Positions 29,949-46,847 of a DNA stretch of 52,833 bases are shown here, piece by piece. The notes under the pieces are model-generated. The model worked only from the letters and a program-made list of their open reading frames with translations, had not been told where the DNA came from and did not search any database. Source of the DNA: a virus (Duplodnaviria; Caudoviricetes); IMG/VR virus record IMGVR_UViG_3300034993_000256, positions 1-52,833 of that record; one strand, written 5' to 3'. How positions within the stretch are numbered: position 1 is the stretch's first letter; every line of letters starts with the position of its first letter. The translations under genes and the position numbers were made by a program.

Positions 29949-30199
29949 GACTCCTCCGCGATGCACCAGAGATAGCCGGCGCGCCGTTCGATGTGGCCAG
30001 CGCGCTCGAGTCGCTTCACGACGTAGTAGCACTGCCCGCGGGACAGCCCTGGCTCACGCTCGGTGAGCGACCGGCGGATGTCGATGAGTCTGGTGCACAA
30101 ACCGTCATCGGCACGCCGCTTGATGAGCTTGAGAGCCACCTCATCACGTTCGACGACCTCTCTCCGTCGCGGCGATCCGATACCGTCACGTGTGGTCAT
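29945..30199 (-). CDS. winged-helix-like DNA-binding protein
   Basis: AGGAGG RBS, TAATG overlap; LSRGQCYYVVKRLERAGHIER. Confidence 0.65.
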   Translation of the reverse strand: MTTRDGIGSPRRREVVERDEVALKLIKRRADDGLCTRLIDIRRSLTEREPGLSRGQCYYVVKRLERAGHIERRAGYLWCIAEES

Positions 30200-31413
30200 T
30201 ACTTCCTCCTTGGTCTGACATCGTAGAACCATTCTCTGTCGCCGACGGGCGTACCTTCTGGGAGCTCGGATACGTCACCCTCGATGGCGAGTTTGATCCA
30301 CTTCCCCAGGAATTGCCCGCATTGGACGGTGATGCCCTTCCCCCAATAGTCTTTCAGACCCTTATCGTCGGCAAGCGGAGCAATCTTCCACGTATCCGGA
30401 AACCCCATCGCTCTTGCGACTTCACGGTGCGTGATGCGCCTCGGCAACCAGGGGTGAATCACATTCCCGATGGCACCACCATAGATGACATACCCTGGGC
30501 GATCTGGCTTCCACCGCGTCGTCGGGAAGTAGCCGGATGTCCACCCCCGCCGTTCGTGTTGCGCGATCTCGTCCGGTGTCCACGGCTCGCCAGGGTGTCC
30601 GCCCATACGTTCCGTTCTACGGCGCAGGATCTCTTCGTAATTCTCGCCAGGCGCCCACTCTTCCTGTTCGAGCAGGATGGCAAGTCGACTCCCGCGCCTG
30701 TCGGTGAGCGGCGGCGACCAGTGTCCGTCCGTACCGAATAGGCCTCGTACCTGGTGCGTGGCCCACAATGACGCCAGTGTCGCGCCGTATCGTTGGAACC
30801 CCCAGTCGTCACCTGGCATGTCGACGAGATCATGAATCGCATCGGCCCACGTCGGCTGCAGTGTCACTGGTGTCACATCGACTCGGAATGGTATCCGGTG
30901 AACGACCCAGAAGTAACGGCGTCGAGTGCACGGACCACCAACGGCCGCGGCATCGTGCTTCACGTGCGTGAGGTCGTACTTGAGACCAGAGATCGCTTCG
31001 AGGTAGTTCCGGAGGTCGACCATCAACTTACGACCGTCAGGGCGACTATACGCGGGCATCACGCTCTCAAATGCGGCGATCTGCGGCTTGACCCTCGCGA
31101 CGTAGTCGGCGAAGTCCCACATGCAGTGGTTGATTGGACTGTCGGCACCGCGGAATTCGGTATTGCTCGCGACCGAGAACCCGCTGCACGGCGGATTGCC
31201 GAGCACGAGCTCGACATCATGTACTTCCCACCCCGCTGGCGCCTCGGCCTGCCACTTCCAATCGTATCCGAGCAAGTGCCGATTATGATCGCAATTCGGG
31301 ATGCCGAATCCGCCGACGTTCTCGACCTTGTGGACCATTCGCAGGCCGGCTTTCGTCGCGCCCATGTCCATCCCGCCAGCGAAACTTTGACAGGCAACGA
31401 AGTGAACGGTCAT
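30199..31413 (-). CDS. C5-cytosine DNA methyltransferase homolog with divergent motifs
   Basis: Motif IV GNPPCSGFS, VI FESV, VIII RRRYF, IX REVARAMGFPD; atypical motif I CQSFAGG and motif X WGKGI. ATG 31413 is coupled to the upstream stop. Confidence 0.88.
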   Translation of the reverse strand: MTVHFVACQSFAGGMDMGATKAGLRMVHKVENVGGFGIPNCDHNRHLLGYDWKWQAEAPAGWEVHDVELVLGNPPCSGFSVASNTEFRGADSPINHCMWDFADYVARVKPQIAAFESVMPAYSRPDGRKLMVDLRNYLEAISGLKYDLTHVKHDAAAVGGPCTRRRYFWVVHRIPFRVDVTPVTLQPTWADAIHDLVDMPGDDWGFQRYGATLASLWATHQVRGLFGTDGHWSPPLTDRRGSRLAILLEQEEWAPGENYEEILRRRTERMGGHPGEPWTPDEIAQHERRGWTSGYFPTTRWKPDRPGYVIYGGAIGNVIHPWLPRRITHREVARAMGFPDTWKIAPLADDKGLKDYWGKGITVQCGQFLGKWIKLAIEGDVSELPEGTPVGDREWFYDVRPRRK

Positions 31414-31760
31414 CGTACGATCTCCAGTGCTTCGCGCATGGTCACCCGAGTAACTTGGGGGTGTTCGACCCACGTGCCAGGAGGATCGCCAACGAGGAGT
31501 ACCGGGATACTCAAGGCGATGGCGGCGCCGATCTCGACGTGAGCACCCTTCCATGGTCCGTCACCCTCGAAATGAACTGCGATGAGGTAGTCCGCAGAAC
31601 GAACCTCTGCGATGCATCTGAGCCAGAATTGCCGCCAATCCTGAATGGCGTCCGACTCATAGAGATCGATCCACGATGAGGTGATGGTGATACCAGCATC
31701 GCGAAGTGCGACCCACTGGGGCCCGTGTTTCGCCTTGGATGCGATGTAGACGCGACTCAC
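31410..31760 (-). CDS. nucleoside 2-deoxyribosyltransferase-like protein
   Basis: VYIAS, SSWID, V.SAD, GAHVEIGAAIA and PVLLVG motifs. Confidence 0.8.
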   Translation of the reverse strand: MSRVYIASKAKHGPQWVALRDAGITITSSWIDLYESDAIQDWRQFWLRCIAEVRSADYLIAVHFEGDGPWKGAHVEIGAAIALSIPVLLVGDPPGTWVEHPQVTRVTMREALEIVR

Positions 31761-31954
31761 TCTTGGACCTCCGGTCGTTCTCGTAGTACGACGACCAGGT
31801 CCACGACGTCGTCGACTTGGAATGCGTATGGGTTGCCGACCGGGCAGATCATCGTCGCCGGTGCCGGGTGATTTGGTTCGATCTTCGACTCCCCATCCCA
31901 GAGTTCGACTGCATTGTCGTGAATCGCCACAACGCGATAACTCGCGAAGTTCAT
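31757..31954 (-). CDS. small hypothetical protein
   Basis: GGAGG RBS; overlapped start and stop with neighbours. Confidence 0.6.
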   Translation of the reverse strand: MNFASYRVVAIHDNAVELWDGESKIEPNHPAPATMICPVGNPYAFQVDDVVDLVVVLRERPEVQE

Positions 31955-32400
31955 TCGAACCCGACCTCCTTCAGGATGCCGGCGATGTCCGGCGGCGTCC
32001 AATCCGGTCCCTTCACGACGTCCCACGTGCCGCCCCTGAGAGATTGATCTGCGGTCGTCGCCCGCAACTTCATCATGTTCGCCCGCTGGACCTCGTCCCA
32101 GCCCTCCTGCCACGGGTAGCCGAAGAGGTGTGCGGTCCCCATCGCGACGTAGACGAGATCGATGAGAGCATCGAACATCTGGGCGTGATCGCCTAGTGCG
32201 ATACCGTCACGGAATTCGTCGAGCTCTTCTGTGAGAAATCGAACCCGGAATTCGACGAGTTCTGTCGTGACATCAATGGGCCCCGGATCACGATCGCTGG
32301 TGTGGAGGTCGAACTTGCGGTGGAAGTCGCCGACGTCCTCGAAGTTGGACGAAGTGCACACCGTATCGATGTCTATCGGTAATGGCTTGAGGTCCGCCAT
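31951..32400 (-). CDS. MazG-like (all-alpha) nucleotide pyrophosphohydrolase
   Basis: EELDEF, DALIDLVYV, EVQRANMMK, KGPDW.PP motifs. Confidence 0.88.
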   Translation of the reverse strand: MADLKPLPIDIDTVCTSSNFEDVGDFHRKFDLHTSDRDPGPIDVTTELVEFRVRFLTEELDEFRDGIALGDHAQMFDALIDLVYVAMGTAHLFGYPWQEGWDEVQRANMMKLRATTADQSLRGGTWDVVKGPDWTPPDIAGILKEVGFE

Positions 32401-33242: not shown

Positions 33243-33649
33243 CTGGAATCACTCCTTTGTGGTAGTTGCGCAAGATGTGCCTTTCGGCACGCCCACCCAG
33301 CGCGCATTGCGGCGCGGCGCTCTTCTGAGTATACGCGACCGCGCTGTGCGGCAGCAATCTTGTCACGGGTTTCCTGTGATACCGGATGCCCCTTCAGACT
33401 TGCGCTCGTCTTCTGCTGAGATTTAGCAGTACTCGGCCGAGCGCGATCATATCGATGACGTAGCGCATGACACGATCGGCAAAGAAGAGCAAGATTTTCG
33501 ATGACATCATTCTGATGATCCTGATCGATATGGTGAATCTGTCCCTGGCCCGATCGTCGTCCAAGTTCAATGAGAATGATATCGCAATCTTCACACGACC
33601 ATGGTCCAGTACCGTGAATTCTGAAGTACACGCGGTGAGACTTAGGCAC
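33239..33649 (-). CDS. HNH endonuclease with NUMOD3 motifs
   Basis: CEDC, IHHIDQDHQND..ENL.LLC.SCH, ETRDKIAAAQRG; start GTG 33649 or ATG 33676. Confidence 0.8.
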   Translation of the reverse strand: MPKSHRVYFRIHGTGPWSCEDCDIILIELGRRSGQGQIHHIDQDHQNDVIENLALLCRSCHALRHRYDRARPSTAKSQQKTSASLKGHPVSQETRDKIAAAQRGRVYSEERRAAMRAGWACRKAHLAQLPQRSDSS

Positions 33650-34433: not shown

Positions 34434-34825
34434 GCGATTCCTTTCTTACGCGCCCAATAGGCATGAGTTGCGTCGGATAGTTTCTGCTTGTGCTCGTCTG
34501 TGAGTCTGACTCCGCGCTTGATCTCACTCATCTTGCGCCGATACTCATCTGTGACTGGCGGTCGTTTCTTACCTGTCTTGGCCGCCGAGATTTTGGCTCG
34601 TGTCTCGGTTGATCGAGGAACGCCTGCGAAATGCAGACGACTATGGCACCCTTTGTGCATTGCGGTCAAGTTCGTTGGTTCGTTGTTCTCGTGATTCTCA
34701 TCAAGGTGATGGATGGCGAGTTCGTCTGGTAGGACGAGATCCTCACAGGCGTTGAGGTAGCACGGCCACGGCCCAGGACCGTTCACAGCGATGAAGATGG
34801 GACGGTACTTCCAACCATCACTCAT
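34430..34825 (-). CDS. HNH endonuclease with NUMOD3 motifs
   Basis: IHHLDENHENNEPTNL...CH..LH; ETRAKISAAKTG, EYRRKMSE, EHKQKLS. Confidence 0.85.
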   Translation of the reverse strand: MSDGWKYRPIFIAVNGPGPWPCYLNACEDLVLPDELAIHHLDENHENNEPTNLTAMHKGCHSRLHFAGVPRSTETRAKISAAKTGKKRPPVTDEYRRKMSEIKRGVRLTDEHKQKLSDATHAYWARKKGIA

Positions 34826-35762: not shown

Positions 35763-36151
35763 ATCCCGGTGTCCCACCGCTTGTCCGGGTGCCACTGTCG
35801 CTGAATCTCGCTGGCAATGCGGGTAATCGCCGACAGCTTCTCGTCGGCGTCCGCCTGGGGTCGCAGCGTGTTGCGGAAGGTAAAGCGGAGGGCGGCCTCG
35901 ACCAACTGCTCTGTCAGTTGGTCGGGGGGCTTGTTCGCTTTCTCTTGCAGTCTTGTGACCTCTTGGAGGACGCTGTCGGCGGTGTACTCCCCGAGGTGAC
36001 CGGAGAGATCGAAACACTCGCCGACCGCGTCCCAGTGTTTCAGCACCTCGAGCGCCTCTGTCTTCCAGCGCCGCAGTCGGTTGATCTCCCTGGTCATCGC
36101 GTCGTACTGCTCAAGTGGGGCGAAGGCTGGGTAGTCGTCGCGAGCGCTCAT
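35759..36151 (-). CDS. hypothetical helical protein
   Basis: ATGA overlaps at both ends. Confidence 0.7.
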   Translation of the reverse strand: MSARDDYPAFAPLEQYDAMTREINRLRRWKTEALEVLKHWDAVGECFDLSGHLGEYTADSVLQEVTRLQEKANKPPDQLTEQLVEAALRFTFRNTLRPQADADEKLSAITRIASEIQRQWHPDKRWDTGI

Positions 36152-36915
36152 GACGGGAACTTCACTCTGTGCTTCTCGATTTCGTTGAGGAAGCGTTGAC
36201 CACGTTCCGGGTCGCTGTCTGGCATCCCCTTGGTGTGGAGTTCGTTCCAGACGTCCTCCAGCGAGTAGCGGGTACGGATCCGTGGGTGCGCCGGCGGCGG
36301 GGTCGAGAATGGATCCCAGCCCCCAGAGATCAGCAAAGCGATCATTGTCTCGTACGCCGCTTCCCAGGGGAGGGTCTCACAGCGCTCCTTCTTCTCCGTG
36401 AAGCGCTCGCGGATCTGCCGGACTCGCTTCCACTGGTGATCGACGGTCGCTTCCTCGTTGATGCCCTTCCCCGTCGGCCCTTTCCCGTCGTTACGGGACA
36501 GGATACGCTCGCGACAGACCTCGAGCGGCGTATCGAGGAAGGCGAACGTGATGCTGTTCTGCACGCCCAACGTCACGTCGAGGCGCTTACGAAGTTCGTG
36601 ATAGCGACCGATCGCGAGGCTCGCCATCATCGACTCGAAGATGACGTGCGGGTAGATGGCGCAGTTCCGTTCGAGCCAGAGTGTGACCAACTCGGTCTTG
36701 CCGGGCATCAACATGTCCATGCCGCCGGTCTTCGCCGTTGGCGCGTACGGACCGACGATGAATAGGCCGCCGGCGAGGAGGTGTCCGACTTGCCGAGGCT
36801 TGACCTTATTCCAGCCGACCTTCTCCCAGACCTCGACTGAGGGGTAATCCTGCAGGAGGCGGTAGAGGCTAGTTGACTTACCGCTGCACGACGAGCCGCG
36901 GATGTTGAGGATCAT
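36148..36915 (-). CDS. P-loop kinase of DNA hypermodification clusters (putative hydroxymethyl-pyrimidine DNA kinase)
   Basis: ILNIRGSSCSGKST, VGPY...GGMD, IFES and FLDTPLEVCRERI..R; near the ADDT-like gene. Confidence 0.75.
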   Translation of the reverse strand: MILNIRGSSCSGKSTSLYRLLQDYPSVEVWEKVGWNKVKPRQVGHLLAGGLFIVGPYAPTAKTGGMDMLMPGKTELVTLWLERNCAIYPHVIFESMMASLAIGRYHELRKRLDVTLGVQNSITFAFLDTPLEVCRERILSRNDGKGPTGKGINEEATVDHQWKRVRQIRERFTEKKERCETLPWEAAYETMIALLISGGWDPFSTPPPAHPRIRTRYSLEDVWNELHTKGMPDSDPERGQRFLNEIEKHRVKFPS

Positions 36916-37118
36916 CAGCCCTCCCGCCAGCTCTTGCGCACCCATTCAGACACCGTGCCCTCACTAACTTTAAATCCGCTTTCACGAAGTTCTCTGGCGA
37001 TTACGGTATACGTCAAACCGTCGTTCTTGTGCCGTCGTTTGATGAACTTGACGACGTCCTCATCCAGCCAATCACTGAGTTCGGCCTTCAAGCTGCGCAT
37101 CGGTCGGTGTTCAATCAT
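36915..37118 (-). CDS. small HTH DNA-binding protein
   Basis: GLTYTVIAREL...VSEGTVSEW; GGAGG RBS, coupled on both sides. Confidence 0.75.
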   Translation of the reverse strand: MIEHRPMRSLKAELSDWLDEDVVKFIKRRHKNDGLTYTVIARELRESGFKVSEGTVSEWVRKSWREG

Positions 37119-37531
37119 ATTCGAGCCTCCAGACTCTCTAGCCACTCGTAGTGGACTGTGTTGACAAGGGCATTTGGCCGGCGAGCACGCACTATGTAGG
37201 CGGCACTCGCGCCGTCGATCCGGTACCGCTCCATCAGGACGAGAGCAGCGATTAGACACGATCGGTTGCGGCCGGCGAGACAGTTGATGACGACGCGGTG
37301 GCCGTGATCCAACATCGCCAGCGCGTAGTCGCGGGCCCGGACGTAATCATCGACCTGAAGACCTTTGCCGTCAGTCACGGGGACGTGCTGCCACCACATG
37401 AGTTTGCGTCGTACATCGGCGGGCGGTAACTTGGTGCAGACCGTGAGGCAGGCCGTCCACTGATAGACCTCGACCTGTTTGACGGTCGGTGTGCCGCACA
37501 CCTCAAGATTCGTATCGATGTGCCAGGGCAC
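37115..37531 (-). CDS. dual-specificity (CX5R) phosphatase
   Basis: Catalytic loop NCLAGRNRS, upstream PVTD acid loop, downstream VRARRP. Confidence 0.88.
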   Translation of the reverse strand: MPWHIDTNLEVCGTPTVKQVEVYQWTACLTVCTKLPPADVRRKLMWWQHVPVTDGKGLQVDDYVRARDYALAMLDHGHRVVINCLAGRNRSCLIAALVLMERYRIDGASAAYIVRARRPNALVNTVHYEWLESLEARI

Positions 37532-38450
37532 GCTTCACCTTCTCTTTCTGCGCCGCTTCGAGATCCGGACGTGCTCCCCACCATTTCATATCGCCGTACT
37601 CGCCGAGATACTCAGGCGGAAACAACTCAAGGCGCAGACGGTAGAACGGAACAACCTGTCGGAGGTCGACGATGCCTCGTTCGTTGAAGTACCCGTTCGC
37701 CTTCCGCCAGTGCGCGAGCTCGCGGTCGTGACTGCGGCCCGGATATTTGCCGTCGAGACTCTGTCGTGCGTTGCAGAGGAGAGTCTCGAGCTGGAACCAG
37801 GTCACGTCCTGCTCAGTCCAAGCCGACGCCGCGAGCGCGAGTTGATTCAACCAGGCCAAAGTCTCTGGTCGATTGTCCTTCGAGTTGATCAGGTCGTCGT
37901 ATTCAGGGAACATCAGGGCGAGCATCTTCCGCGGGTACTTCGCTCCCTTCGCGACGATCGATGACTGCGGTGCGACCTGAAGACCGGCCTGGTGCATCGT
38001 CTCGATGACCTTCATCGTTGCGTACCGGCCGAAGTATTTCGCCCGCTTGCCGATACTCATGTACAACTCATCGTACGTCATTGCATGGACCTCATCGGAT
38101 GACGTGGTGTAGCACCAATCGATCCACGAGACGACGGACTCCATCAGTTTCCGCCGGTCATCACCCCAGACCGACCGCCGCTCACGTCGCATCGGGAACC
38201 CGTCTTTGTGTTCGATGAGGAAGGACGCCCAATCCGTGATGCCGGTCTGACGGAGGTGCCAAAGGACAGCTCCCGAACCGACCGTGTACGGCACGACGAA
38301 CAAGCCGCAGAAGACGGCCTGCTCCGCCGGAATGAGACCCTGCTCCCGGACAGCGCGACCGACAAGCGTCACCTGCGGGTCCGGGCCACCGCTCGCGAGC
38401 TCGGCCCGGCAGAAGTCCACGAAGAGTTCGCGGTAGACATCAGCGCTCAC
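37503..38450 (-). CDS. amino acid:DNA transferase-like protein (ADDT / aGPT-Pplase2, HhH-glycosylase fold)
   Basis: GPDP, RRERR, YFGRY...IE, LETLLC and YPG motifs recalled from this family; GTG 38450 with GAGGTG RBS. Confidence 0.7.
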   Translation of the reverse strand: MSADVYRELFVDFCRAELASGGPDPQVTLVGRAVREQGLIPAEQAVFCGLFVVPYTVGSGAVLWHLRQTGITDWASFLIEHKDGFPMRRERRSVWGDDRRKLMESVVSWIDWCYTTSSDEVHAMTYDELYMSIGKRAKYFGRYATMKVIETMHQAGLQVAPQSSIVAKGAKYPRKMLALMFPEYDDLINSKDNRPETLAWLNQLALAASAWTEQDVTWFQLETLLCNARQSLDGKYPGRSHDRELAHWRKANGYFNERGIVDLRQVVPFYRLRLELFPPEYLGEYGDMKWWGARPDLEAAQKEKVKRALAHRYES

Positions 38451-39009
38451 GTAGCACCTCACGTAAGAGCGTGTCGATGTGTTCGTGGATGTCGACATAC
38501 TCGAACTTGATGCCGAGCATCGCTGCTCTCTTCGCGTCGCTGAAGCTGTCGCCGACGAACCAATCCGGCTGACACCGTTTGAGATTCTCGATCTTCGTTC
38601 CCATGTCGATGCCGTGACAGTGGATGAGTGACTCGAGCTGCACGAGGTGCTCTCGCAACCAAGTACGAATGATCGGTGTCGTGGTGGACGAGATGATGTG
38701 CACGCCGATATGCGCGGCGATCAGTTGGTGAATTGCAGCGATCGTCTCTTTCTTCGGCTTGGACCGGATCGTCACGTCGAACTTCTCAGCGGCGTATGCA
38801 GCGACGGCGAGACTGACTTCACGACCGGTCGAGCACATGATCCGCGGTAACTGCACATCGAACGGGTCGCCTGATGTTTCTCGGTATCGTTGCCGGATCA
38901 CATTCTCATCGGCGACATCCCAGTACCGACCGATGACGTCCACGGCGAGGTCTTCCAACCCGCCCATACTGTCGCAGATCGTGCCGTCGAAGTCGAATGC
39001 GACGATCAT
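38440..39009 (-). CDS. HAD-family phosphatase
   Basis: Motif I FDFDGT, II ISS, III K, IV GDSFSD. Confidence 0.88.
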   Translation of the reverse strand: MIVAFDFDGTICDSMGGLEDLAVDVIGRYWDVADENVIRQRYRETSGDPFDVQLPRIMCSTGREVSLAVAAYAAEKFDVTIRSKPKKETIAAIHQLIAAHIGVHIISSTTTPIIRTWLREHLVQLESLIHCHGIDMGTKIENLKRCQPDWFVGDSFSDAKRAAMLGIKFEYVDIHEHIDTLLREVLRER

Positions 39010-41498: not shown

Positions 41499-41959
41499 AT
41501 TAGAGATTGTATCAACTCTTCGCGTACCTGTCCAGTACCGTGCGTGACTATTCCAAGAACAAGGTGCCGGATGGCGTCGCGGGCGTGGTCCTTACCGGGC
41601 TGCCAAAGGCCGATCTTCCGCAGCTGAGCGTCGGAGCAGAACCGTTTAGCAGCTGCCGGTGTCTGCATTACGGGACACGATCTCGCACGGCGGAGGAGGA
41701 ACTTCATGGTGCCGATCACTTCCATGGCAATGGGCTGCTGACTCATGCGTACGGTTTGGGCGGTGATCGTGAACGTTTCAATGAGCACCAAGCACGATGA
41801 GTCAAGGAATTGCGGTGTGTCAGCGAACCAATTGAGAAACTCATAATCGGTACATTGTCCGGCAGCGACAGAATTAGCCGACCAATGCCCACCCAACATC
41901 ATATGCGCCCATCCGGTCATGTCGCCAGGGTCCACGGCGAGTGCGTAGCGGAAGGTCAT
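41495..41959 (-). CDS. RuvC-like Holliday junction resolvase
   Basis: LAVDPG.MTGWA, IETF, EVIG, HARDA..H. Confidence 0.8.
   Translation of the reverse strand: MTFRYALAVDPGDMTGWAHMMLGGHWSANSVAAGQCTDYEFLNWFADTPQFLDSSCLVLIETFTITAQTVRMSQQPIAMEVIGTMKFLLRRARSCPVMQTPAAAKRFCSDAQLRKIGLWQPGKDHARDAIRHLVLGIVTHGTGQVREELIQSLI
41506..41535 (-). promoter_or_regulatory. promoter P5, CTGGACA-N17-TACAAT, inside the 3' end of the RuvC-like gene
   Basis: -35 at 41529-34 and -10 at 41506-11, with extended TG. Confidence 0.8.
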
Positions 41960-42243
41960 CGCGCTCTCCATTCTCTTATATGCGCCGCATTCGCTTCACG
42001 GCAACACGCGTCGTGACAAGGAGACAAACGAGACTGATAGCGCTCGTAAGTGCCGTGCGGCGGTAAGAGGATGTACTTCTTCGGGAGTTTGACGCGACGC
42101 TTGGGCCGTCCGTATGGGCGCGGTGCGTATGTACCCGCGCGTATGGCAGCGCGACGATCTCGTTTATACTTCGTGTTGGCAGCCCGGCACTCATCGTGCT
42201 TGCAACCCGTGTTGTAGCAAGCGCGCGTCCCGCGTTTGGTCAT
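41956..42243 (-). CDS. small basic protein with two (H/R)GT..Y..C..C R.AN repeats
   Basis: RGTRACYNTGCKHDECRAAN and HGTYERY...CHDACCREAN. Confidence 0.75.
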   Translation of the reverse strand: MTKRGTRACYNTGCKHDECRAANTKYKRDRRAAIRAGTYAPRPYGRPKRRVKLPKKYILLPPHGTYERYQSRLSPCHDACCREANAAHIREWRAR

Positions 42244-44021
42244 AGCGCATAGTCTTCCTTGGAACCCCAGGACTGACCAACGGACGGTGCAACCGTGATG
42301 GGGACGCTGATCAGATTGGCATCGGCCATGATGTTGCAGGCCGAGTCAGCAAGTTCGCGCAACTGATCCGTTGGGACATCGAAGATGATCTCATCGTGAA
42401 CTGGGAGGACGAGGTACGGACCGAAGCCGGCGTGATCGAGTTCGACCAATTTCATCTTCAGCAACTCTGCGGCGGCTCCCTGCACCAACTTGTTAACGAG
42501 CGTGTACACACGGTCGTGATCCATCGGGTGAATCTGGCCGGTGAGTGGTGAACGAGCATAGGCGACACCTTCCTCTTGCCGGCGCTGATTCGCTCGGTTC
42601 TCGATGTGCCGGTTGAGACCTTTCATCAGCGGGTAGCGAGCCGCGATCATGTCGTACATCTGCTGTCCGTACTCAGCTGCGAGACCAGCCGTCTTCGCGA
42701 ACTTCGCGGCGCCAGCGCCGTAGCCAATTGCGTACATGGCATTCTTCGTATGTTGCCTGCGCTCGTCCTTCCGAGTGAGTGTCGGCTCAGCCCACAACTC
42801 GCGCATGATGGCCGTGAACACATCGACGTCTGGGTCGGTGAAGGCCGCGATCAGCCCGAGATCTTGCGACACATGGGCGAGGAATCGCAACTCGACCTGG
42901 TCGTAGTCGACCATCAATAGCGTATTGCCGGGCGATGCGATCAGTGCCTTACGAACTGTGATCGCAGCCGGGTTGTCTTCTGAGGACCGCGGCAGGTTCT
43001 GGAGGTTCGGTGCACTCATCGTCATACGAGTCGTCACCGCGCCGCACGATTTGATGCTTGGGTGTAGCCGAGGGTCTTCGTCTGTCGTCTCTTCGACGAA
43101 ATGACGGAGATACGTCGACGCGAGCTTGGAATACCGACGATGTTCGAGTACCGCGTTTGCGAGTGGGTGCAGGTGAGCGATGGGACCGAGCACGAATTTG
43201 TCGAGTTGAACGGCGCCAGAGGCGGTTGTCTTGTCGAGTGGTATCCCATCAGCGATCAACCGTTGAGCAACCGATGCATTCGCACTCGGTCGGACGCCGT
43301 AGTGCTCACTGCACCAATCGCTGACTGACTTGGCGTATGAGCGGAAAGATACAAGCGCCTCACTGGCGAATGGACGGTCAACCATGATGCCATTGCGCTC
43401 CATCTTCTCCACGACCCAGGCAGCTGCCAGCTCGAGTTCGTACGCTCGTGTCGCACCCATTTCCCGGACTTTCGGCATGAGGATGGCGGCAAGCCGAGTA
43501 GTGAGGACGACGTCCATCGCTGCGTACGTCCAATACGGCTCGTAATCGACGGGGACTGTTGCCCAAGTCCATCCTGTCGTACTCTTCCACTGATCTTGGA
43601 GAGCGAGTGCCATTGGGTCCACATACCGGCCAGCGAGTTGCTTCAATCCGCCGGACATGTTCGGCTCGATGGCGTGCGCCATCAGCATTGTGTCATCACA
43701 GCGATCCTGCGGCATCTGATAGTCACAGGTGGCACGGATCATCCCGACATCGAACTTCATGTTGTGCAGGACCATGCGACCGTCGTAACGGTCCATCGCT
43801 TCCAAGAACACGCCGCCCCACCGCTGCCATGGGATCGCCCAACCATGCACTTCGTCGCCGATCTGCACAAGCCGGACTTTGTCGTGTTCGATACGCAGGC
43901 CCTCCGTTTCAGTGTCGACGGCGATCCCGCCTTCACGTCGCTCTCCGAGCCAGCGCATCATCTCATTCGCTGTCTCGAGGTCATCGACTAGGTGCAACTT
44001 GACGTCGGCGAGTGAACTCAC
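42240..44021 (-). CDS. polA: DNA polymerase, family A, with 3'-5' exonuclease
   Basis: Exo DTET, HNMKFD, YAAMD; polymerase motif A DYDQVELR, B RQHTKNAMYAIGYG, C VHDE. Confidence 0.95.
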   Translation of the reverse strand: MSSLADVKLHLVDDLETANEMMRWLGERREGGIAVDTETEGLRIEHDKVRLVQIGDEVHGWAIPWQRWGGVFLEAMDRYDGRMVLHNMKFDVGMIRATCDYQMPQDRCDDTMLMAHAIEPNMSGGLKQLAGRYVDPMALALQDQWKSTTGWTWATVPVDYEPYWTYAAMDVVLTTRLAAILMPKVREMGATRAYELELAAAWVVEKMERNGIMVDRPFASEALVSFRSYAKSVSDWCSEHYGVRPSANASVAQRLIADGIPLDKTTASGAVQLDKFVLGPIAHLHPLANAVLEHRRYSKLASTYLRHFVEETTDEDPRLHPSIKSCGAVTTRMTMSAPNLQNLPRSSEDNPAAITVRKALIASPGNTLLMVDYDQVELRFLAHVSQDLGLIAAFTDPDVDVFTAIMRELWAEPTLTRKDERRQHTKNAMYAIGYGAGAAKFAKTAGLAAEYGQQMYDMIAARYPLMKGLNRHIENRANQRRQEEGVAYARSPLTGQIHPMDHDRVYTLVNKLVQGAAAELLKMKLVELDHAGFGPYLVLPVHDEIIFDVPTDQLRELADSACNIMADANLISVPITVAPSVGQSWGSKEDYAL

Positions 44022-44482
44022 AGAACCTCCACCCCGATACCGAGTGAGCGCAGGAATCGATAATTCTCGTCCGCCTTTCGGTATTCCCGGCCGGCATCAG
44101 TCTTCACGATGACCATAGCGAGTCCGCTGTTCGCGATGAGCTTCGCGCAGTTGAAACAGAGGTCGCCAAGGACGTAGATGGTGCCGCCCTGCCAAGCCGA
44201 GCGATCGGCTGCCATTAAAGCATTCGCCTCGGCGTGAAGGGCGTAACAGTCGTCGTACAAGGGACTGAGTCCATCTCCCAATTTCACCGCTCTCGGGCAC
44301 CAATTGACACACGACTCATCGCGGTGATCGAAGTGCGCAGGGGGGTTGTTGTACCCTGTCGCGATGACACGATTACGTGAGTCCGTGATGACGGCGCCGA
44401 CGTGCGCTCGCGAGCAGAGGCTTCGTTCAGCGATCACCGTCGCGGCCTCGAGCCAGACTTCATCCCAGGTTGGACGGGTCAT
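44018..44482 (-). CDS. dCMP deaminase
   Basis: C....VGAVI, TGYN, HAEANAL, C..CAKLI.NSG. Confidence 0.9.
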   Translation of the reverse strand: MTRPTWDEVWLEAATVIAERSLCSRAHVGAVITDSRNRVIATGYNNPPAHFDHRDESCVNWCPRAVKLGDGLSPLYDDCYALHAEANALMAADRSAWQGGTIYVLGDLCFNCAKLIANSGLAMVIVKTDAGREYRKADENYRFLRSLGIGVEVL

Positions 44483-45360
44483 GAGATCGCCTCCACCTGC
44501 TTCCACGCCGCCCCCAAGCGGGTGTGGTACCATTGGTGCGACGGCGGCTCGTCTCCGATGTTACGGCCTTCGAGGATGTCGTACGCCGTAGTCAACAGTG
44601 ACCGACCAGACATCATCCCGCCTTGCGCCGGATGAAGACCGTCAGGCAGCGGGTTAGTCGACTTCCACCCTTCATCGAAGGTGAGGGACCGGGCCCGTTC
44701 GAGATCTTTCTTGTAGAGGTGCATCGAGATGGAGTGGTGACAGTATTCGCCGATCTCACGCCCGAGGAAGTTGGCGACCGTACGTTGGAGCTGACGGAAT
44801 TGGAACACGTCGAACGGCATACCGAGCCACACATCGCTCGATCGCATGACAACACTGAGAAGGAGCAACTCATCCCGGATGCGGAATGTTAGCGCAATGG
44901 TGCACGGGATGTCCTTCGGCATCGGATCACGCCACTCACTGTCTTCGTTCTTGTCCCAAATCTGGATCACGGCCTGCCGACTGCTCGGGTCCATCTTCAA
45001 CTTGTTGACAACATCCATGATCTGGTTGTCGATGCGCCCACCGTAGTTCCCGTGGACGGTACCGTCGGCTTCCCGGACGTAATCAGCCACCCCCGCTGCG
45101 ACGGCCTCAGTGAGGCGTGGTAATTCAATACCGGCACAGAGTTGAATGGCTTCGGCTGCGGCGAGGTTTGTATTGATCTTGCGTCCGACGCCGAGCGGAA
45201 GGTCGAGCGCTTCAGGAGCGAGCGTGAATACGAAGTCGTCAGTCTCATATGCCATACCAGCCCGGCTCTTAATAACGGTGTCGTAGTGCCGATCGACTCG
45301 TCGGACGAGGGACATGTACCCTTTTCGCCAATCGTCGTAATAGTCGTTCATGTAGGCCAT
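44479..45360 (-). CDS. thymidylate synthase superfamily enzyme, Asp-type (dCMP hydroxymethylase/methylase-like)
   Basis: SRQAV..IW, DIPCT, MRSSDVWLGMPFDVF, SMHLY. Confidence 0.88.
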   Translation of the reverse strand: MAYMNDYYDDWRKGYMSLVRRVDRHYDTVIKSRAGMAYETDDFVFTLAPEALDLPLGVGRKINTNLAAAEAIQLCAGIELPRLTEAVAAGVADYVREADGTVHGNYGGRIDNQIMDVVNKLKMDPSSRQAVIQIWDKNEDSEWRDPMPKDIPCTIALTFRIRDELLLLSVVMRSSDVWLGMPFDVFQFRQLQRTVANFLGREIGEYCHHSISMHLYKKDLERARSLTFDEGWKSTNPLPDGLHPAQGGMMSGRSLLTTAYDILEGRNIGDEPPSHQWYHTRLGAAWKQVEAIS

Positions 45361-45953
45361 GGATGTGTCTCCTCGTAGGTTGGGATCGGATTTCTGTACC
45401 CCGCAACCGATGCCTCCATGCGAGCGCTGGCTAGAATGGCTGGCGCAATAGCGCTCGCTTGTGTGAGGTCAGTGTTAACGACCTTCAACTTAGGGCCGGG
45501 TGTCATGAATTGCACATCCAAGAACAGCCCGGCATACGCATTGTTGATCTTAGGCAGGAGGTGCGGGTCGATGAGGTCGTCACCCCGCTCCGCGAGACGC
45601 TTCATGAGGACGGGGCTGGGGGCATGTGCGTGAACATACAACGCACCCCTGTCGCGGAGTAGTCCGTCAAGCCAGCGTGCCTGCGCTAGGCTCAGTTTGC
45701 TTGCACCCCTCAGGATCGGCCCGTACACGAGCTCGCCGAGGTGCCAGCGATCCATCACGACGAGCCAGTCCTGGTTCGGGGTCAATGCGAGGAGATCCTG
45801 AGCGTACTCCTCCCAGGGTCCGTGCTCTGCCGTGAAGGGCCCGCGGTTCCAAACGGCGCTGCCCCCGCGACCTTCTTCTGCGTACACTCGGATGAGTTCG
45901 TCGCGGAGGGTCGACTTGCCGGCGCAGTCCGGACCTTCAAGGAGGATGATCAT
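45348..45953 (-). CDS. dNMP (thymidylate kinase-like) kinase
   Basis: LEGPDCAGKST, DRWHLGELVYG, R...RGD. Confidence 0.88.
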   Translation of the reverse strand: MIILLEGPDCAGKSTLRDELIRVYAEEGRGGSAVWNRGPFTAEHGPWEEYAQDLLALTPNQDWLVVMDRWHLGELVYGPILRGASKLSLAQARWLDGLLRDRGALYVHAHAPSPVLMKRLAERGDDLIDPHLLPKINNAYAGLFLDVQFMTPGPKLKVVNTDLTQASAIAPAILASARMEASVAGYRNPIPTYEETHPWPT

Positions 45954-46345
45954 CGCGCACCTGCGATCTCATCGAAGGCGTCAAGCGCGTCAATGATGTC
46001 CTCATCGATCTCACCGGCCTCATGAAGGACCTTCCGGCTGACCTTGGGGATGTACCGCCGACCAGGCTCGCCCATGGAGAGGTAGTCGACGATCGCTCCC
46101 GCTGCCGTGGTGTATTCCACCCGGACTCGGTCCACCTCGCCTTGCACCCTGGAGCGACCGATCATCTCGACTCGGTATTCAATTTGCTGTTCGTCATCGA
46201 CAATATCCGTCGGTCTGCTGCTGAGCCGGACCTCAAACCACCGGCAGCCCTGACAACCTTGGGCGTCGTGAAGCTTGTTTGGGTGATCTGTTCGGCTTGA
46301 TGCTGTAGAGAGCACCAACCACCCGTGACGGTCGACGACTCTCAT
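45950..46345 (-). CDS. hypothetical protein
   Basis: CQGCRWFE; ATG 46345 coupled to the upstream stop. Confidence 0.7.
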   Translation of the reverse strand: MRVVDRHGWLVLSTASSRTDHPNKLHDAQGCQGCRWFEVRLSSRPTDIVDDEQQIEYRVEMIGRSRVQGEVDRVRVEYTTAAGAIVDYLSMGEPGRRYIPKVSRKVLHEAGEIDEDIIDALDAFDEIAGAR

Positions 46346-46569
46346 ATCCGGACCACCGTCAATGCTTTGTTTGTTGTCCAATCAGCAATGAACGGCCCAA
46401 GGTGATCAGAGCAGACGAATACCTGCTTACTGCCGTTGGAGACTGTGAAGCCTGGGTGACGATCGCAGAACATGCACTTGCTCGGTTTGCCGTGATCGTG
46501 AGCGGCGAAATCGCGCGCCTTGATGATCTCCGCCGAGCGGAGGACGACGTCCCTGATGAACTTCCTCAT
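46342..46569 (-). CDS. small Zn-finger-like protein
   Basis: CMFC...CSDH; ATGA coupling, GGAG RBS. Confidence 0.65.
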   Translation of the reverse strand: MRKFIRDVVLRSAEIIKARDFAAHDHGKPSKCMFCDRHPGFTVSNGSKQVFVCSDHLGPFIADWTTNKALTVVRI

Positions 46570-46817: not shown

Positions 46818-46847
46818 ATTGTACCATATCTCATGAAGTTTGTCCAG
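46818..46847 (-). promoter_or_regulatory. promoter P4, CTGGACA-N17-TACAAT
   Basis: -35 at 46841-46 and -10 at 46818-23, with extended TG. Confidence 0.88.

What the first reader, a model, noticed from the sequence alone, without database searches (positions are those of the whole stretch)
44018..45953. Cytidylate-type synthase coupled to a dCMP deaminase: possible new route into hydroxymethyl-pyrimidine DNA
Seen: kinase, TS homolog, dCMP deaminase and Pol A are consecutive overlapping genes. The TS reads PCT and MRSSDVWLGMPFD, with Asp (codon 44809-11) at the position of E. coli ThyA Asn177; no DHFR is in the window. Established: Asn selects dUMP and Asp selects dCMP (T4 dCMP hydroxymethylase), and the characterised kinase/ADDT pathways act on hmU made from dUMP. 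Inference: either hm-dCMP is deaminated to hm-dUMP (an indirect hmU route), or hmC is incorporated and the kinase/ADDT pair hypermodifies cytosine. A mundane alternative is 5m-dCMP deaminated to dTMP.
Basis: partly seen in the sequence, partly recalled or inferred. Interest (0 to 1): 0.85.

Follow-up and report, generated by a model that had tools for sequence, protein, structure and literature searches.

The report
Phage cytosine hydroxymethylase with coupled deaminase
An uncultured soil or sediment phage carries a thymidylate-synthase relative built to hydroxymethylate dCMP, next to a deaminase, a common arrangement; unusually, it also has the kinase and transferase known only from thymine hypermodification, so its DNA probably holds an undescribed modified pyrimidine.

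Summary
Kinase, TS homolog, dCMP deaminase and PolA are consecutive overlapping minus-strand genes. The TS reads PCT and MRSSDVWLGMPFD, and Asp184 (GAC, 44811-44809) aligns with ThyA Asn177. No DHFR is present.

All six literature-defined signature positions match T4 gp42. They do not match dUMP hydroxymethylases, the PaMx74 5mC-type enzyme, 5-hydroxy-dCMP synthases or the ribo-specific MilA. So the enzyme is most likely a 5-hydroxymethyl-dCMP synthase (about 0.8).

The coupling to a deaminase is not new. It occurs in 83 of 85 related loci and is described in the MetaGPA papers and a 2024 preprint.

What is unusual is a lineage-specific insert: HAD, AADT-fold transferase, phosphatase and 5-HMUDK homolog. 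Among 61 HMUDK loci with a readable TS, 57 have the Asn type and 4 the Asp type.

Sequence cannot tell whether hmC enters DNA and is hypermodified (about 0.4) or is deaminated to hmU (about 0.33).

One finding argues against full cytosine replacement: a C5-cytosine methyltransferase homolog occurs in 22 of 28 related records.

This scan flagged the same pairing before in other genomes (e1-5360941, e1-5963463).

Verdict: a new variant of a known kind, testable in cultured Gordonia phages.

The parts
46818..46846 (-). Promoter-like site TGGACA-17-TACAAT upstream of the operon. An identical one at 41506-41534 starts the next unit.
   Evidence: This is a consensus match only: 4 sites were found against 2.1 expected.
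45950..46381 (-). 143-aa ORF of unknown function. Its stop overlaps the kinase start (ATGA).
   Evidence: No Pfam or PHROG family. Relatives found in 4 of 85 related loci.
45348..45953 (-). Thymidylate-kinase-like dNMP kinase. Inferred to phosphorylate the modified monophosphate.
   Evidence: PF02223 and TIGR00041 match only at the P-loop and below cut-off. phrog_761 5.3e-16. The only PDB sequence match is SPbeta YorR, 3.6e-7. Present next to the TS in 82 of 85 related loci. Present in 5 of 5 Asp-type HMUDK loci but only 1 of 57 Asn-type loci.
44479..45360 (-). TS-fold enzyme with the dCMP hydroxymethylase signature: Arg128, Asp150, Cys153, Thr154, Ser174, Asp176, Asp184 correspond to ThyA R126, L143, C146, H147, S167, D169, N177.
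44018..44533 (-). dCMP-deaminase-family protein. The probable start is the ATG at 44482, which forms ATGA with the TS stop.
   Evidence: PF00383 4.5e-15 and PF14437 2.1e-10. PDB matches: S. mutans dCMP deaminase 2e-12, human DCTD 1.9e-11, T4 cd 5.8e-10, with the HAE and C..C zinc motifs aligned.
42240..44021 (-). Family A DNA polymerase with a 3'-5' exonuclease domain.
   Evidence: The GTGA overlap with the deaminase is shown.
38440..39009 (-). HAD-superfamily hydrolase, the first gene of the lineage-specific insert.
   Evidence: PF12710 27.8 bits and PF13419 25.5 bits. Among the 85 related loci it is found only in L012. Kept in 4 window-like contigs.
37503..38498 (-). Amino acid:DNA transferase (AADT/ADDT) homolog.
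   Evidence: PF18724 scores 24.0 bits against a 26.2 cut-off. Orthologs score 31.0, 30.6 and 26.1. 31 of 53 homologs carry precomputed PF18724. hhalign to M6 gp51: E 7e-4, probability 26%. The AF2 model has pLDDT 94.9. The Foldseek top three hits are all PaMx11 gp46 PUGT: probability 1.00, TM 0.50/0.56, E 3.7e-3.
37115..37531 (-). Dual-specificity (Cys-type) phosphatase, functionally tied to the transferase.
   Evidence: PF00782 1.4e-9. Two homologs of the transferase (P0163, P0166) are fused to a DSPc domain.
36148..36945 (-). Homolog of 5-hmdU DNA kinase (5-HMUDK), of a divergent subfamily with a longer C-terminus.
   Evidence: PF18748 scores 22 bits against a cut-off of 27. BLASTP to M6 gp54: 6e-16, 29% identity. 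Many orthologs carry precomputed PF18748.
31951..32400 (-). MazG/PRA-PH nucleotide pyrophosphohydrolase. Inferred to clear a competing canonical dNTP.
   Evidence: PF01503 1.1e-12. phrog_671 1.3e-27. A profile built from it finds 25 of 80 related loci, at the edge of the fetched flank, and gives 3 weak hits in Asn-type HMUDK loci.
31410..31760 (-). Small protein resembling nucleoside 2-deoxyribosyltransferase (the MilB/DNPH1 fold). Role unknown.
   Evidence: PF05014 26.3 bits, below the 28.8 cut-off.
30199..31554 (-). C5-cytosine DNA methyltransferase homolog (PPC motif present). It bears on whether cytosine is fully replaced.
   Evidence: PF00145 6.2e-18. 67-91% identical in window-like contigs. 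34.7% identity over 403 aa to the DSL-LC01 copy. The family is present in 22 of 28 related records and in Sixama and GMA2.

Best explanation
The gene at 44479-45360 encodes a 5-hydroxymethyl-dCMP synthase, that is, a dCMP hydroxymethylase. It is neither a thymidylate synthase nor a dUMP hydroxymethylase.

It belongs to a translationally coupled operon (kinase, TS homolog, deaminase, PolA). This operon is the conserved nucleotide-supply core of a large group of actinophage-like viruses and works like the T4 pathway (gp42, gp1, gp56, cd).

Inferred steps:
1. The MazG-like enzyme returns dCTP to dCMP.
2. The TS homolog adds a hydroxymethyl group from methylene-tetrahydrofolate. There is no net folate oxidation, so no DHFR is needed.
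3. The adjacent thymidylate-kinase-like enzyme makes the diphosphate, and host NDP kinase makes 5hm-dCTP.
4. PolA incorporates it.
5. The deaminase most likely turns part of the dCMP pool into dUMP for host dTMP synthesis, as T4 cd does.

In this lineage only, an inserted block of HAD, AADT-fold transferase, Cys-phosphatase and 5-HMUDK homolog would then phosphorylate the hydroxymethyl group in DNA and replace the phosphate with an amino acid. On this reading that happens on 5-hydroxymethylcytosine.

Shown here: the gene order, the signature residues, the folds and the distribution.
Inferred: every enzymatic step and the identity of the base.
Odds: dCMP hydroxymethylase about 0.8; the whole chain ending in hypermodified hmC about 0.4.
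For: (1) Signature residues. At ThyA positions 126/143/146/147/167/169/177 the window has R/D/C/T/S/D/D, the same as T4 gp42. SPO1 gp29, M6 gp58 and a ViI-like phage have Asn147/Asn177. PaMx74 has Asn143/Pro147. E. coli has Leu143/His147/Asn177. The meaning of these positions comes from papers that I read in part:
- Asp177 means dCMP, Asp/Glu143 means a hydroxymethyl product, Asn169 means a 5-hydroxy product (PMC13326640, sections 24 and 28).
- Positions 177 and 147 are the two most discriminating in cytosine-modified contigs (PMC8670742).
- Ser167/Arg126 mean a deoxyribose substrate (PMC5175136).

(2) All 55 homologs keep D143/C146/T147, and 54 of 55 keep D177; one has a gap.

(3) A profile of the family hits MilA, a CMP hydroxymethylase, at 7e-39. 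The next match is a TS at 1.2e-26.

(4) Tree of 49 rows. The Asp143 enzymes form one clade (SH-aLRT 98). All 19 Asn177 enzymes form one subclade (98). The window sits in a 16-row all-Asp177 clade (99).

(5) A dedicated kinase lies next to the TS in 5 of 5 Asp-type HMUDK loci but in only 1 of 57 Asn-type loci. That fits a cytidine nucleotide that the host kinase will not take; this T4 gp1 logic is recalled, not from a call.

(6) MazG accompanies the Asp-type cassette, as PRA-PH does in cytosine-modified contigs.

(7) In the preprint's in vivo screen of 90 TS-linked deaminases, only 7 produced 5hmdU, and all 7 were linked to methyl-type TS.

(8) GMA2 and 2 of 28 related records also encode ThyX, so at least those make ordinary dTMP.

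(9) No DHFR in 5 of 5 records.
Against: A C5-cytosine DNA methyltransferase homolog with an intact PPC motif is one of the best-conserved genes of the module. It is 67-91% identical across window-like contigs. The family is present in 22 of 28 related long records, in 6 of the 7 that are at least 90% complete, and also in DSL-LC01, Sixama and GMA2. Such an enzyme needs a free C5, so complete replacement of C by hmC is hard to reconcile with it.

HMUDK and AADT enzymes have only been shown to act on 5-hmdU or 5-PmdU (PMC8989533, PMC11472151; passages).

The window's clade is sister to the dUMP hydroxymethylases (SH-aLRT 90) rather than to T4 gp42, which is a very long branch.

The deaminase is tightly coupled to the TS (ATGA overlap). 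Phage deaminases of this family that act on 5hm-dCTP exist: mSCD-B5 converted 65% in 30 min.

No experiment bears on this phage or on any cultured relative; none is reported in the passages I read of PMC4524720 and PMC10611076.
Confidence: 0.4

Rival explanations
1. Indirect route to hydroxymethyluracil. The TS homolog makes 5hm-dCMP. The coupled deaminase converts the hydroxymethylated cytidine nucleotide to the uridine form, either as the monophosphate or, like mSCD-B5, as the triphosphate. 5hmU replaces T in DNA and is then the ordinary substrate of the HMUDK and AADT homologs. Cytosine stays canonical and is the substrate of the conserved C5-methyltransferase homolog. This is the Xp12 logic (5m-dCTP to dTTP) transposed to hydroxymethyl.
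For: The TS stop and the deaminase start overlap (ATGA), and the pair is kept in 83 of 85 related loci.

Every record that combines an Asp-type TS with an HMUDK also has a deaminase-family gene and a single TS. This holds for the window, G001, G002 (100% complete) and G003 (92% complete). No Tet/JBP was found in them, but that search's control was silent.

HMUDK and AADT are known only on 5hmU.

The C5-methyltransferase homolog, present in 22 of 28 records, needs unmodified cytosine.

A TS-linked phage deaminase that converts 5hm-dCTP to 5hm-dUTP exists, and 34 of 194 soluble candidates preferred 5-modified C.

The kinase is thymidylate-kinase-like.
Against: In the preprint's screen, all 7 deaminases that made 5hmdU were linked to methyl-type TS, not hydroxymethyl-type.

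Contigs with Asp177 TS, deaminase and PRA-PH were enriched by a selection for modified cytosine.

Asn-type phages mostly lack an adjacent kinase (1 of 57). A route through hm-dUMP would therefore not obviously need one.

Three records of the group encode ThyX.

Relatives carry enzymes linked elsewhere to 5hmC: a TAGT glycosyltransferase in L143 and a glycosyltransferase with a UDP-galactopyranose mutase in DSL-LC01.
Confidence: 0.33
2. Classical pathway after all. Despite the Asp, the enzyme hydroxymethylates dUMP supplied by the deaminase, as in SPO1, M6 and ViI, and 5hmU is hypermodified in the usual way.
For: The gene set (deaminase, TS homolog, kinase, PolA, HMUDK, AADT) is the textbook set (PMC8989533 introduction). 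The window's clade is sister to the dUMP hydroxymethylases. PW916, which has the same signature, is annotated as a deoxyuridylate hydroxymethyltransferase, but only by similarity.
Against: All 19 Asn177 enzymes in the tree form one clade with Asn147 as well. The window's clade has Asp177/Thr147 without exception. Swapping this residue switches pyrimidine preference in TS and in T4 gp42 (references cited in PMC8670742). 57 of 61 HMUDK loci with a readable TS use the Asn type, so the Asn form is what selection keeps for dUMP.
Confidence: 0.1
3. Xp12-like methyl pathway. The enzyme is a dCMP methyltransferase and the deaminase turns 5-methyl-dC nucleotides into thymidine nucleotides.
For: TS-linked deaminases with this role are documented: 5 of 7 tested TS homologs made 5mdCMP. 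PaMx74 has thyA and cd adjacent.
Against: PaMx74 gp52 has Asn143/Pro147 and keeps Trp80, with a DHFR two genes away. The window has Asp143/Thr147 and no DHFR. In the tree PaMx74 lies outside the Asp143 clade. An HMUDK homolog would have no hydroxyl group to phosphorylate.
Confidence: 0.05
4. An ordinary thymidylate synthase that supplies dTMP.
For: The databases annotate relatives as thymidylate synthase.
Against: Leu143, His147 and Asn177 are all replaced. All NCBIfam thymidylate synthase equivalog models score far below their cut-offs; the best is 71.5 bits against 174.55.
Confidence: 0.02

Closest known systems
Phage T4 hmC pathway: gp42 dCMP hydroxymethylase, gp1 dNMP kinase, gp56 dCTPase, cd dCMP deaminase
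   Same: The TS homolog has the same active-site signature (D143, C146, T147, S167, D169, D177). The functional set is the same: hydroxymethylase, dedicated kinase, NTP pyrophosphatase, deaminase. No DHFR is required.
   Different: The kinase is thymidylate-kinase/YorR-like, not gp1-like. The pyrophosphatase is MazG/PRA-PH. The genes are contiguous and overlapping and lie next to a family A polymerase. T4 gp42 is a distant, long branch in the tree. T4 has no C5-methyltransferase, no HMUDK and no AADT.
The 'Asp177 TS + in-cis dCMP deaminase + PRA-PH + PolA' module of cytosine-modified metaviromic contigs (MetaGPA, PMC8670742; bioRxiv 10.1101/2024.12.05.627091)
   Same: Same domain neighbourhood. 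In that work 104 of 149 deaminases in modified contigs lie within 3 kb of a TS, and the top neighbours are TS, MafB19-deam, PRA-PH and DNA_pol_A. Both deaminase Pfam models hit the window protein.
   Different: The deaminases characterised there belong to methyl-type TS and make dTTP. The window's TS is hydroxymethyl-type. Those papers, in the parts I read, do not mention an HMUDK or AADT partner.
Thymidine hypermodification pathways of M6, PaMx11, ViI, PhiW-14 and SP10 (dUMP hydroxymethylase, 5-HMUDK, AADT)
   Same: An HMUDK homolog (BLASTP 6e-16 to M6 gp54), and an AADT homolog whose model matches the PaMx11 gp46 structure best. Both lie in the replication region near the TS homolog.
   Different: The TS is Asp-type here. 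Both downstream enzymes are divergent subfamilies that fall below the Pfam cut-offs. They come with a Cys-phosphatase (fused to the transferase in two homologs) and a HAD hydrolase, not with PLP, radical-SAM or FAD enzymes.
MilA, the CMP 5-hydroxymethylase of mildiomycin biosynthesis (PDB 5b6d, 5jnh)
   Same: It is the closest solved structure by sequence (7e-39 with the family profile). It is cytosine-specific, with Asp at the 177 and 143 positions.
   Different: MilA has Ala176/Lys133' for a ribose substrate. The window has Ser/Arg, as do the deoxyribose enzymes.
Xp12/PaMx74 dCMP methyltransferase with a 5-methyl-dC nucleotide deaminase
   Same: An Asp177 TS homolog directly next to a deaminase. 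One TS homolog may feed both pyrimidines.
   Different: PaMx74 has Asn143/Pro147 and a DHFR neighbour, and its product is methyl.

Membership tests
dCMP hydroxymethylase (T4 gp42 type, 5hm-dCMP synthase) | TS fold with the catalytic Cys (ThyA C146) | tested here: met
   PF00303 1.2e-18. Cys153 lies in the C146 column in every alignment.
dCMP hydroxymethylase (T4 gp42 type, 5hm-dCMP synthase) | Asp at the ThyA Asn177 position (cytosine specificity) | tested here: met
   Asp184, codon GAC at 44811-44809. 54 of 55 homologs have Asp and one has a gap.
dCMP hydroxymethylase (T4 gp42 type, 5hm-dCMP synthase) | An acidic residue at the ThyA Leu143 position (lets water reach the methylene intermediate) | tested here: met
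   Asp150, and Asp in 55 of 55 homologs. The criterion is from PMC13326640, section 24.
dCMP hydroxymethylase (T4 gp42 type, 5hm-dCMP synthase) | Ser167 and Arg126 (deoxyribose rather than ribose substrate) | tested here: met
   Ser174 and Arg128 are invariant in the family. The criterion is from PMC5175136.
dCMP hydroxymethylase (T4 gp42 type, 5hm-dCMP synthase) | Branches with characterised dCMP hydroxymethylases | tested here: inconclusive
   The window lies inside the Asp143 clade (SH-aLRT 98) but in a separate all-Asp177 clade that is sister to the dUMP hydroxymethylases (90). T4 gp42 is a 4.6-unit branch.
dCMP hydroxymethylase (T4 gp42 type, 5hm-dCMP synthase) | Converts dCMP plus CH2-THF to 5hm-dCMP | not testable with these tools
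   This needs an enzyme assay.
dUMP hydroxymethylase (SPO1 gp29, M6 gp58) | Asn at position 177 and Asn at position 147 | tested here: not met
   The window has Asp and Thr. SPO1, M6, the ViI-like phage and the TS of 57 HMUDK loci have Asn and Asn.
dCMP methyltransferase (Xp12/PaMx74 type) | Non-acidic residue at 143, Pro147, and a DHFR partner | tested here: not met
   PaMx74 gp52 has N143/P147 with frd nearby. The window has D143/T147 and no PF00186.
5-hydroxy-dCMP synthase (RB69 gp48, DLP3 gp80) | Asn in place of ThyA Asp169 | tested here: not met
   Asp176 is retained. The criterion is from PMC13326640, section 28.
dCMP deaminase family (PF00383) | Zinc-binding HAE and C..C motifs, and a domain score over the cut-off | tested here: met
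   55.8 bits against a cut-off of 25. The motifs align with S. mutans, human and T4 dCMP deaminases. The residue before the first Cys is Leu, not Pro.
5-modified-dC-selective deaminase (mSCD-B5 type) | Prefers 5mC or 5hmC nucleotides over C | not testable with these tools
5-hmdU DNA kinase (PF18748) | Homology to characterised 5-HMUDK | tested here: met
   BLASTP to M6 gp54: 6e-16 over 196 aa. Pfam gives 22 bits, below the cut-off of 27, for the window itself. Many orthologs at 68-81% identity carry precomputed PF18748.
5-hmdU DNA kinase (PF18748) | Phosphorylates 5-hmdU in DNA | not testable with these tools
   The substrate base is the open question.
Amino acid:DNA transferase (AADT/ADDT, PF18724) | Pfam score over the cut-off | tested here: inconclusive
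   The window scores 24.0 against 26.2. Orthologs score 31.0, 30.6 and 26.1. 31 of 53 homologs carry precomputed PF18724.
Amino acid:DNA transferase (AADT/ADDT, PF18724) | Fold of the solved AADT (PaMx11 gp46 PUGT) | tested here: met
   Model pLDDT 94.9. Foldseek ranks 1-3 are 8z2m/8z2n: probability 1.00, TM 0.50/0.56, 316 columns, E 3.7e-3. The next unrelated hit has probability 0.05. The E-value is above 0.001, so this is a moderate match.

The most novel reading that the evidence does not exclude
The HMUDK and AADT homologs act on 5-hydroxymethylcytosine in DNA. This would be the first cytosine branch of the 'phosphorylate the hydroxymethyl, then displace with an amino acid' chemistry, and it would give an amino-acid-bearing cytosine that nobody has described. 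The pairing arose in at least two or three separate lineages: the window's actinophage-like lineage, the 40-kb complete genome behind L143, and the record behind L173.
Probability: 0.35. Interest if true: 0.85.

Novelty: new variant of a known kind. Interest (0 to 1): 0.62.

Why it matters
Phage DNA hypermodifications defeat restriction enzymes and CRISPR, and they supply enzymes for epigenetic sequencing and DNA labelling.

All known kinase-plus-amino-acid-transferase pathways start from 5-hydroxymethyluracil made by an Asn-type TS homolog. Here the only TS-fold enzyme in the record is cytosine-type. So one of two undescribed things must hold. Either the chemistry has a cytosine branch, or a deaminase carries hydroxymethyl-dC nucleotides into hydroxymethyl-dU. 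The second case would be a third way to make 5hmU DNA, beside dUMP hydroxymethylase and T-dioxygenases.

The core cassette is common: 474 stretches in IMG/VR. It is present in cultured Gordonia phages (Sixama, GMA2 and others), so nucleoside mass spectrometry on existing lysates would settle which base is changed.

The near-universal C5-methyltransferase homolog in this group is a further puzzle, and the same experiment would address it.

Tried and rejected
- **Close DNA relatives among phage records:** none found by megablast.
I used the search for related loci instead, which limits context to 10 kb each side. As a result, MazG and the methyltransferase (9-14 kb from the TS) fall at or beyond the edge of most loci. 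I recovered them by whole-record searches.
- **Sequencing runs:** 24 DNA runs hold the stretch, but all are kept as assembled contigs. No RNA holder is listed and there are no raw long reads, so no base-calling signal could be read.
- **AADT base recognition:** the PUGT paper reports backbone contacts rather than base-specific ones, so no residue test for U versus C was possible.
- **Kinase base recognition:** the only PDB sequence match is the uncharacterised YorR.
- **First AF2 model of the transferase,** from 5 sequences, was useless (pLDDT 42.8). The second, from 46 sequences, was good.
- **Profiles of the transferase against PDB sequences** found nothing.
- **The pdb_via library** was not on the machine.
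- **tblastn missed some deaminases** (L143, L007) that Pfam or the record annotation show. The deaminase counts are therefore lower bounds.
- **The Tet_JBP search** found nothing, but its control rang nowhere, so it carries little weight.
- **Tree sample:** it used 18 of the 55 family proteins and 16 of the 57 Asn-type TS from HMUDK loci. The others were left out for speed.
- **Correction to a note:** my notebook entry says 54 Asn-type loci. The correct count is 57.
- **Literature:** searches for a 5hmC DNA kinase or a cytosine-directed AADT found no such paper. This covers only the held library.
- **Supplementary files were closed.** These could contain members of this clade or tested deaminases next to hydroxymethyl-type TS: the TS and deaminase lists of 10.1101/2024.12.05.627091 and PMC8670742, and the alignment behind Fig. 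6 of PMC13326640.
- **Papers.** I read passages only, except where stated:
  - PMC8989533, PMC5889632, PMC11955845, PMC8670742, PMC11472151, PMC5175136, PMC13229309, PMC4524720, PMC10611076: passages.
  - PMC13326640: abstract and sections 24 and 28.
  - PMC12783734: abstract and outline.
  - The preprint: passages and section 20.
- **Recalled, not from any call:** E. coli kinases do not accept hm-dCMP, so T4 needs gp1.

Full report
**What is there.** The window is a whole IMG/VR virus record of 52,833 bp, estimated 73% complete. On the minus strand lie, in order:
- a thymidylate-kinase-like P-loop protein (45348-45953)
- a TS-fold protein (44479-45360; PF00303 1.2e-18)
- a dCMP-deaminase-family protein (44018-44533; PF00383 4.5e-15)
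- a family A DNA polymerase (42240-44021).

The genes overlap. Kinase and TS overlap by 13 nt. The TS stop and a deaminase ATG at 44482 form ATGA. The deaminase stop and the polymerase start form GTGA. The upstream 143-aa ORF overlaps the kinase by ATGA. Promoter-like sites of identical sequence at 46846-46818 and 41534-41506 bracket the block; these are consensus matches only. No DHFR domain is in the record.

**What the TS homolog is.** I aligned it with enzymes of known activity taken from annotated records: E. coli ThyA, T4 gp42, SPO1 gp29, M6 gp58, a ViI-like Klebsiella phage, and PaMx74 gp52. The last comes from a phage that a preprint says replaces C with 5mC (alignments). At ThyA positions 143/147/169/177 the readings are:

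| Enzyme | 143/147/169/177 |
|---|---|
| Window | D/T/D/D |
| T4 gp42 | D/T/D/D |
| The three dUMP hydroxymethylases | D/N/D/N |
| PaMx74 gp52 | N/P/D/D |
| E. coli ThyA | L/H/D/N |

The literature I read gives these positions their meaning:
- Asp177 selects dCMP.
- An acidic residue at 143 goes with hydroxymethyl products.
- Asn169 marks 5-hydroxy-dCMP synthases (PMC13326640, sections 24 and 28).
- Positions 177 and 147 are the two that best separate TS homologs of cytosine-modified contigs from those of unmodified contigs (PMC8670742).
- Ser167/Arg126 versus Ala/Lys separates deoxyribose from ribose substrates (PMC5175136). The window has Ser174/Arg128.

All 55 database homologs keep D143/C146/T147, and 54 of 55 keep D177, with one gap. 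A profile of the family matches MilA, a CMP hydroxymethylase, at 7e-39, ahead of any thymidylate synthase at 1.2e-26. All NCBIfam thymidylate synthase models score far below their cut-offs.

I built a tree of 49 rows, a sample of what I had. The Asp143 enzymes form one clade (SH-aLRT 98). All 19 Asn177 enzymes form one subclade (98). The window lies in a 16-row clade that is Asp177 throughout (99) and is sister to the Asn177 clade (90). T4 gp42 is a very long branch elsewhere in the Asp143 clade.

I conclude that the enzyme is a 5hm-dCMP synthase with odds of about 0.8. It is unlikely to be a dUMP hydroxymethylase (0.1), a dCMP methylase (0.05) or a thymidylate synthase (0.02).

**How common the coupling is.** A scan of IMG/VR with the family alignment found 474 related stretches. 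I examined the best 80 loci plus 5 phage records by tblastn with the window's proteins:

| Gene | Loci with it (of 85) |
|---|---|
| Deaminase | 83 |
| PolA | 83 |
| Kinase | 82 |
| SNF2 helicase | 78 |
| Exonuclease | 70 |
| SSB | 62 |

These are lower bounds, because some loci are cut and tblastn missed at least two deaminases. The same order is annotated in Actinomycetia phage DSL-LC01 and in Gordonia phages Sixama and GMA2.

So the kinase-TS-deaminase-PolA block is the conserved core of a large phage group, not a peculiarity of this genome. It is also in print. In MetaGPA data, 104 of 149 deaminases in cytosine-modified contigs lie within 3 kb of a TS, and the top neighbours are TS, MafB19-deaminase, PRA-PH and DNA_pol_A. 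The authors tested 90 such deaminases for action on hydroxymethyl-dC nucleotides in vivo. Seven made 5hmdU, and all seven sat next to methyl-type TS homologs. The best one, mSCD-B5, deaminates 5m-dCTP (99% in 30 min) and 5hm-dCTP (65%) but not dCMP or 5m-dCMP. Its proposed role is dTTP supply, as in Xp12 (bioRxiv 10.1101/2024.12.05.627091). T4 itself has gp42 and cd.

**What is unusual.** Between the helicase and the exonuclease the window carries four further genes:
- a HAD hydrolase
- a transferase (37503-38498)
- a Cys-type dual-specificity phosphatase
- a P-loop kinase (36148-36945).

Among the 85 related loci only L012 (77% TS identity) has these four.

The kinase is a real 5-HMUDK homolog: BLASTP 6e-16 to M6 gp54, with many orthologs carrying precomputed PF18748.

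The transferase scores just under the Pfam ADDT cut-off (24.0 against 26.2). Orthologs pass, at 31.0 and 30.6 bits, and 31 of 53 homologs carry PF18724. hhalign to M6 gp51 shows the shared motifs (E 7e-4, probability 26%). An AlphaFold model built from 46 sequences (pLDDT 94.9) has the solved AADT, PaMx11 gp46, as its three best Foldseek matches: probability 1.00, TM 0.50/0.56, E 3.7e-3, which is a moderate match. Two homologs are fused to the phosphatase domain, which ties those two genes together.

Eight IMG/VR contigs of the window's lineage keep the transferase, phosphatase and kinase. Where the locus reaches far enough, they also keep MazG and the C5-methyltransferase homolog.

**Which TS type goes with HMUDK elsewhere.** I looked at 80 IMG/VR loci found with canonical HMUDK proteins.

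| TS near the HMUDK | Loci |
|---|---|
| Asn-type | 57 |
| Asp-type | 4 |
| Unreadable | 1 |
| None found | 18 |

The four Asp-type loci are L138, L143, L173 and L177. L138 is the window's relative. L143 comes from a 100%-complete 40-kb genome with 39% GC. L173 and L177 are near-identical and come from a 92%-complete record.
- L143 has HMUDK (48.8 bits), the HMUDK helical-domain protein, a TET-associated glycosyltransferase, a thymidylate-kinase-like gene and the Asp-type TS.
- L173 has HMUDK, a dUTPase/dCTP-deaminase-like gene, the kinase, the Asp-type TS, a HAD and a Mom-family protein.
- Both records have a single TS-fold gene, a deaminase-family gene, no DHFR and no Tet/JBP hit. The Tet/JBP control was silent.

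The pairing of a cytosine-type TS with the 'thymine' kinase is thus rare but recurrent. In those genomes the hydroxymethyl group can only come from the Asp-type enzyme.

**Which base ends up modified.** Sequence does not decide this.

For hmC in DNA:
- The signature residues.
- A dedicated kinase next to the TS in 5 of 5 Asp-type HMUDK loci against 1 of 57 Asn-type loci.
- MazG/PRA-PH travelling with the Asp-type cassette: 25 of 80 loci at the flank edge, against 3 weak hits in Asn-type loci.
- The MetaGPA enrichment of such contigs by a selection for modified cytosine.
- The negative result for hydroxymethyl-linked deaminases implied by the preprint's screen.
- ThyX in GMA2 and in 2 of 28 records.
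- Glycosyltransferases of 5hmC-associated kinds in relatives.

For hmU by deamination:
- The overlapping TS and deaminase genes.
- The known substrates of HMUDK and AADT.
- The existence of deaminases that take 5hm-dCTP.
- Above all, a C5-cytosine DNA methyltransferase homolog with an intact PPC motif. It is among the best-conserved genes of the module: 67-91% identity in window-like contigs and 34.7% over 403 residues to DSL-LC01. The family is present in 22 of 28 long related records, in 6 of the 7 that are at least 90% complete, and in DSL-LC01, Sixama and GMA2. An enzyme that attacks C5 of cytosine has no obvious use in a genome whose cytosines are all hydroxymethylated.

I weigh the two at about 0.40 and 0.33 and commit to the first. 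I flag the methyltransferase as unexplained on that reading.

**Comparison with the known, and novelty.** The TS homolog passes every testable membership feature of a T4-type dCMP hydroxymethylase and fails those of the three sister activities. The cassette works like the T4 pathway and matches the published metaviromic module. The new element is the Asp-type enzyme combined with HMUDK and AADT homologs, plus a phosphatase and a HAD. On either reading this predicts an undescribed DNA base or an undescribed route. My literature searches found no paper naming a 5hmC DNA kinase or a cytosine-directed AADT.

This scan has noted the same pairing in other soil-phage genomes (e1-5360941, e1-5963463). 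My reading, reached from my own calls, agrees with theirs.

I class it as a new variant of a known kind, with interest 0.62. The first step of the question, which base the core cassette changes, is directly testable, because cultured Gordonia phages carry that cassette.

Noticed in passing
window 30199-31554 (-), and related records G007-G034: A C5-cytosine DNA methyltransferase homolog travels with the Asp-type TS cassette across the whole phage group. It is in 22 of 28 long IMG/VR records, and also in DSL-LC01, Sixama, GMA2 and MW202657. It usually lies 12-14 kb from the TS, just past MazG. This is odd for phages predicted to make hmC.
   Followed up: partly
window 31410-31760 (-): A 116-aa ORF between MazG and the methyltransferase weakly matches nucleoside 2-deoxyribosyltransferase (PF05014, 26.3 bits, below the 28.8 cut-off). 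That is the fold of MilB and DNPH1, which hydrolyse hydroxymethyl-pyrimidine nucleotides. The TS family's closest solved relative is MilA, the partner of MilB.
   Followed up: no
proteins P0163 and P0166 (homologs of window 37503-38498): Two homologs of the AADT-like protein are fused to a dual-specificity phosphatase domain (PF00782). In the window the two are adjacent, overlapping genes.
   Followed up: no
L143:9983-12714 (IMG/VR record G002, 40,441 bp, 100% complete): A low-GC (39%) phage carries these genes in a row: HMUDK, a TET-associated glycosyltransferase, a thymidylate-kinase-like gene and an Asp-type TS. The HMUDK helical-domain protein and a deaminase lie further upstream. It has no second TS.
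   Followed up: partly
L173:9575-15722 (record G003): An Asp-type TS, HMUDK, a dUTPase/dCTP-deaminase-like gene and a HAD sit next to a Mom-family protein (PF25680, 2.4e-44). Two different DNA modification systems may therefore lie side by side.
   Followed up: no
L003:19894-23515 (Actinomycetia phage DSL-LC01): The same core cassette is followed by a glycosyltransferase, a UDP-galactopyranose mutase and MazG. This suggests a glycosylated hydroxymethyl-pyrimidine in that phage.
   Followed up: no
L011:26686-27249 (M6 gp54) and phrog_800: The M6 5-HMUDK is annotated 'terminase small subunit' in RefSeq, and PHROG 800 carries that label. The window's kinase therefore also hits a 'terminase' family, which is a misleading name.
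   Followed up: partly
L009:3280-4098 (PW916) and L099:11869-12678 (AXL3): These TS homologs are annotated as deoxyuridylate hydroxymethyltransferase or thymidylate synthase, but they carry the D143/T147/D177 cytosine signature. PW916 has no HMUDK. The annotations are probably wrong about the substrate.
   Followed up: partly
window 33239-33991 and 34430-34825 (-): Two HNH/NUMOD3 homing-endonuclease-like genes are inserted in the replication module, between the exonuclease and the SSB.
   Followed up: no
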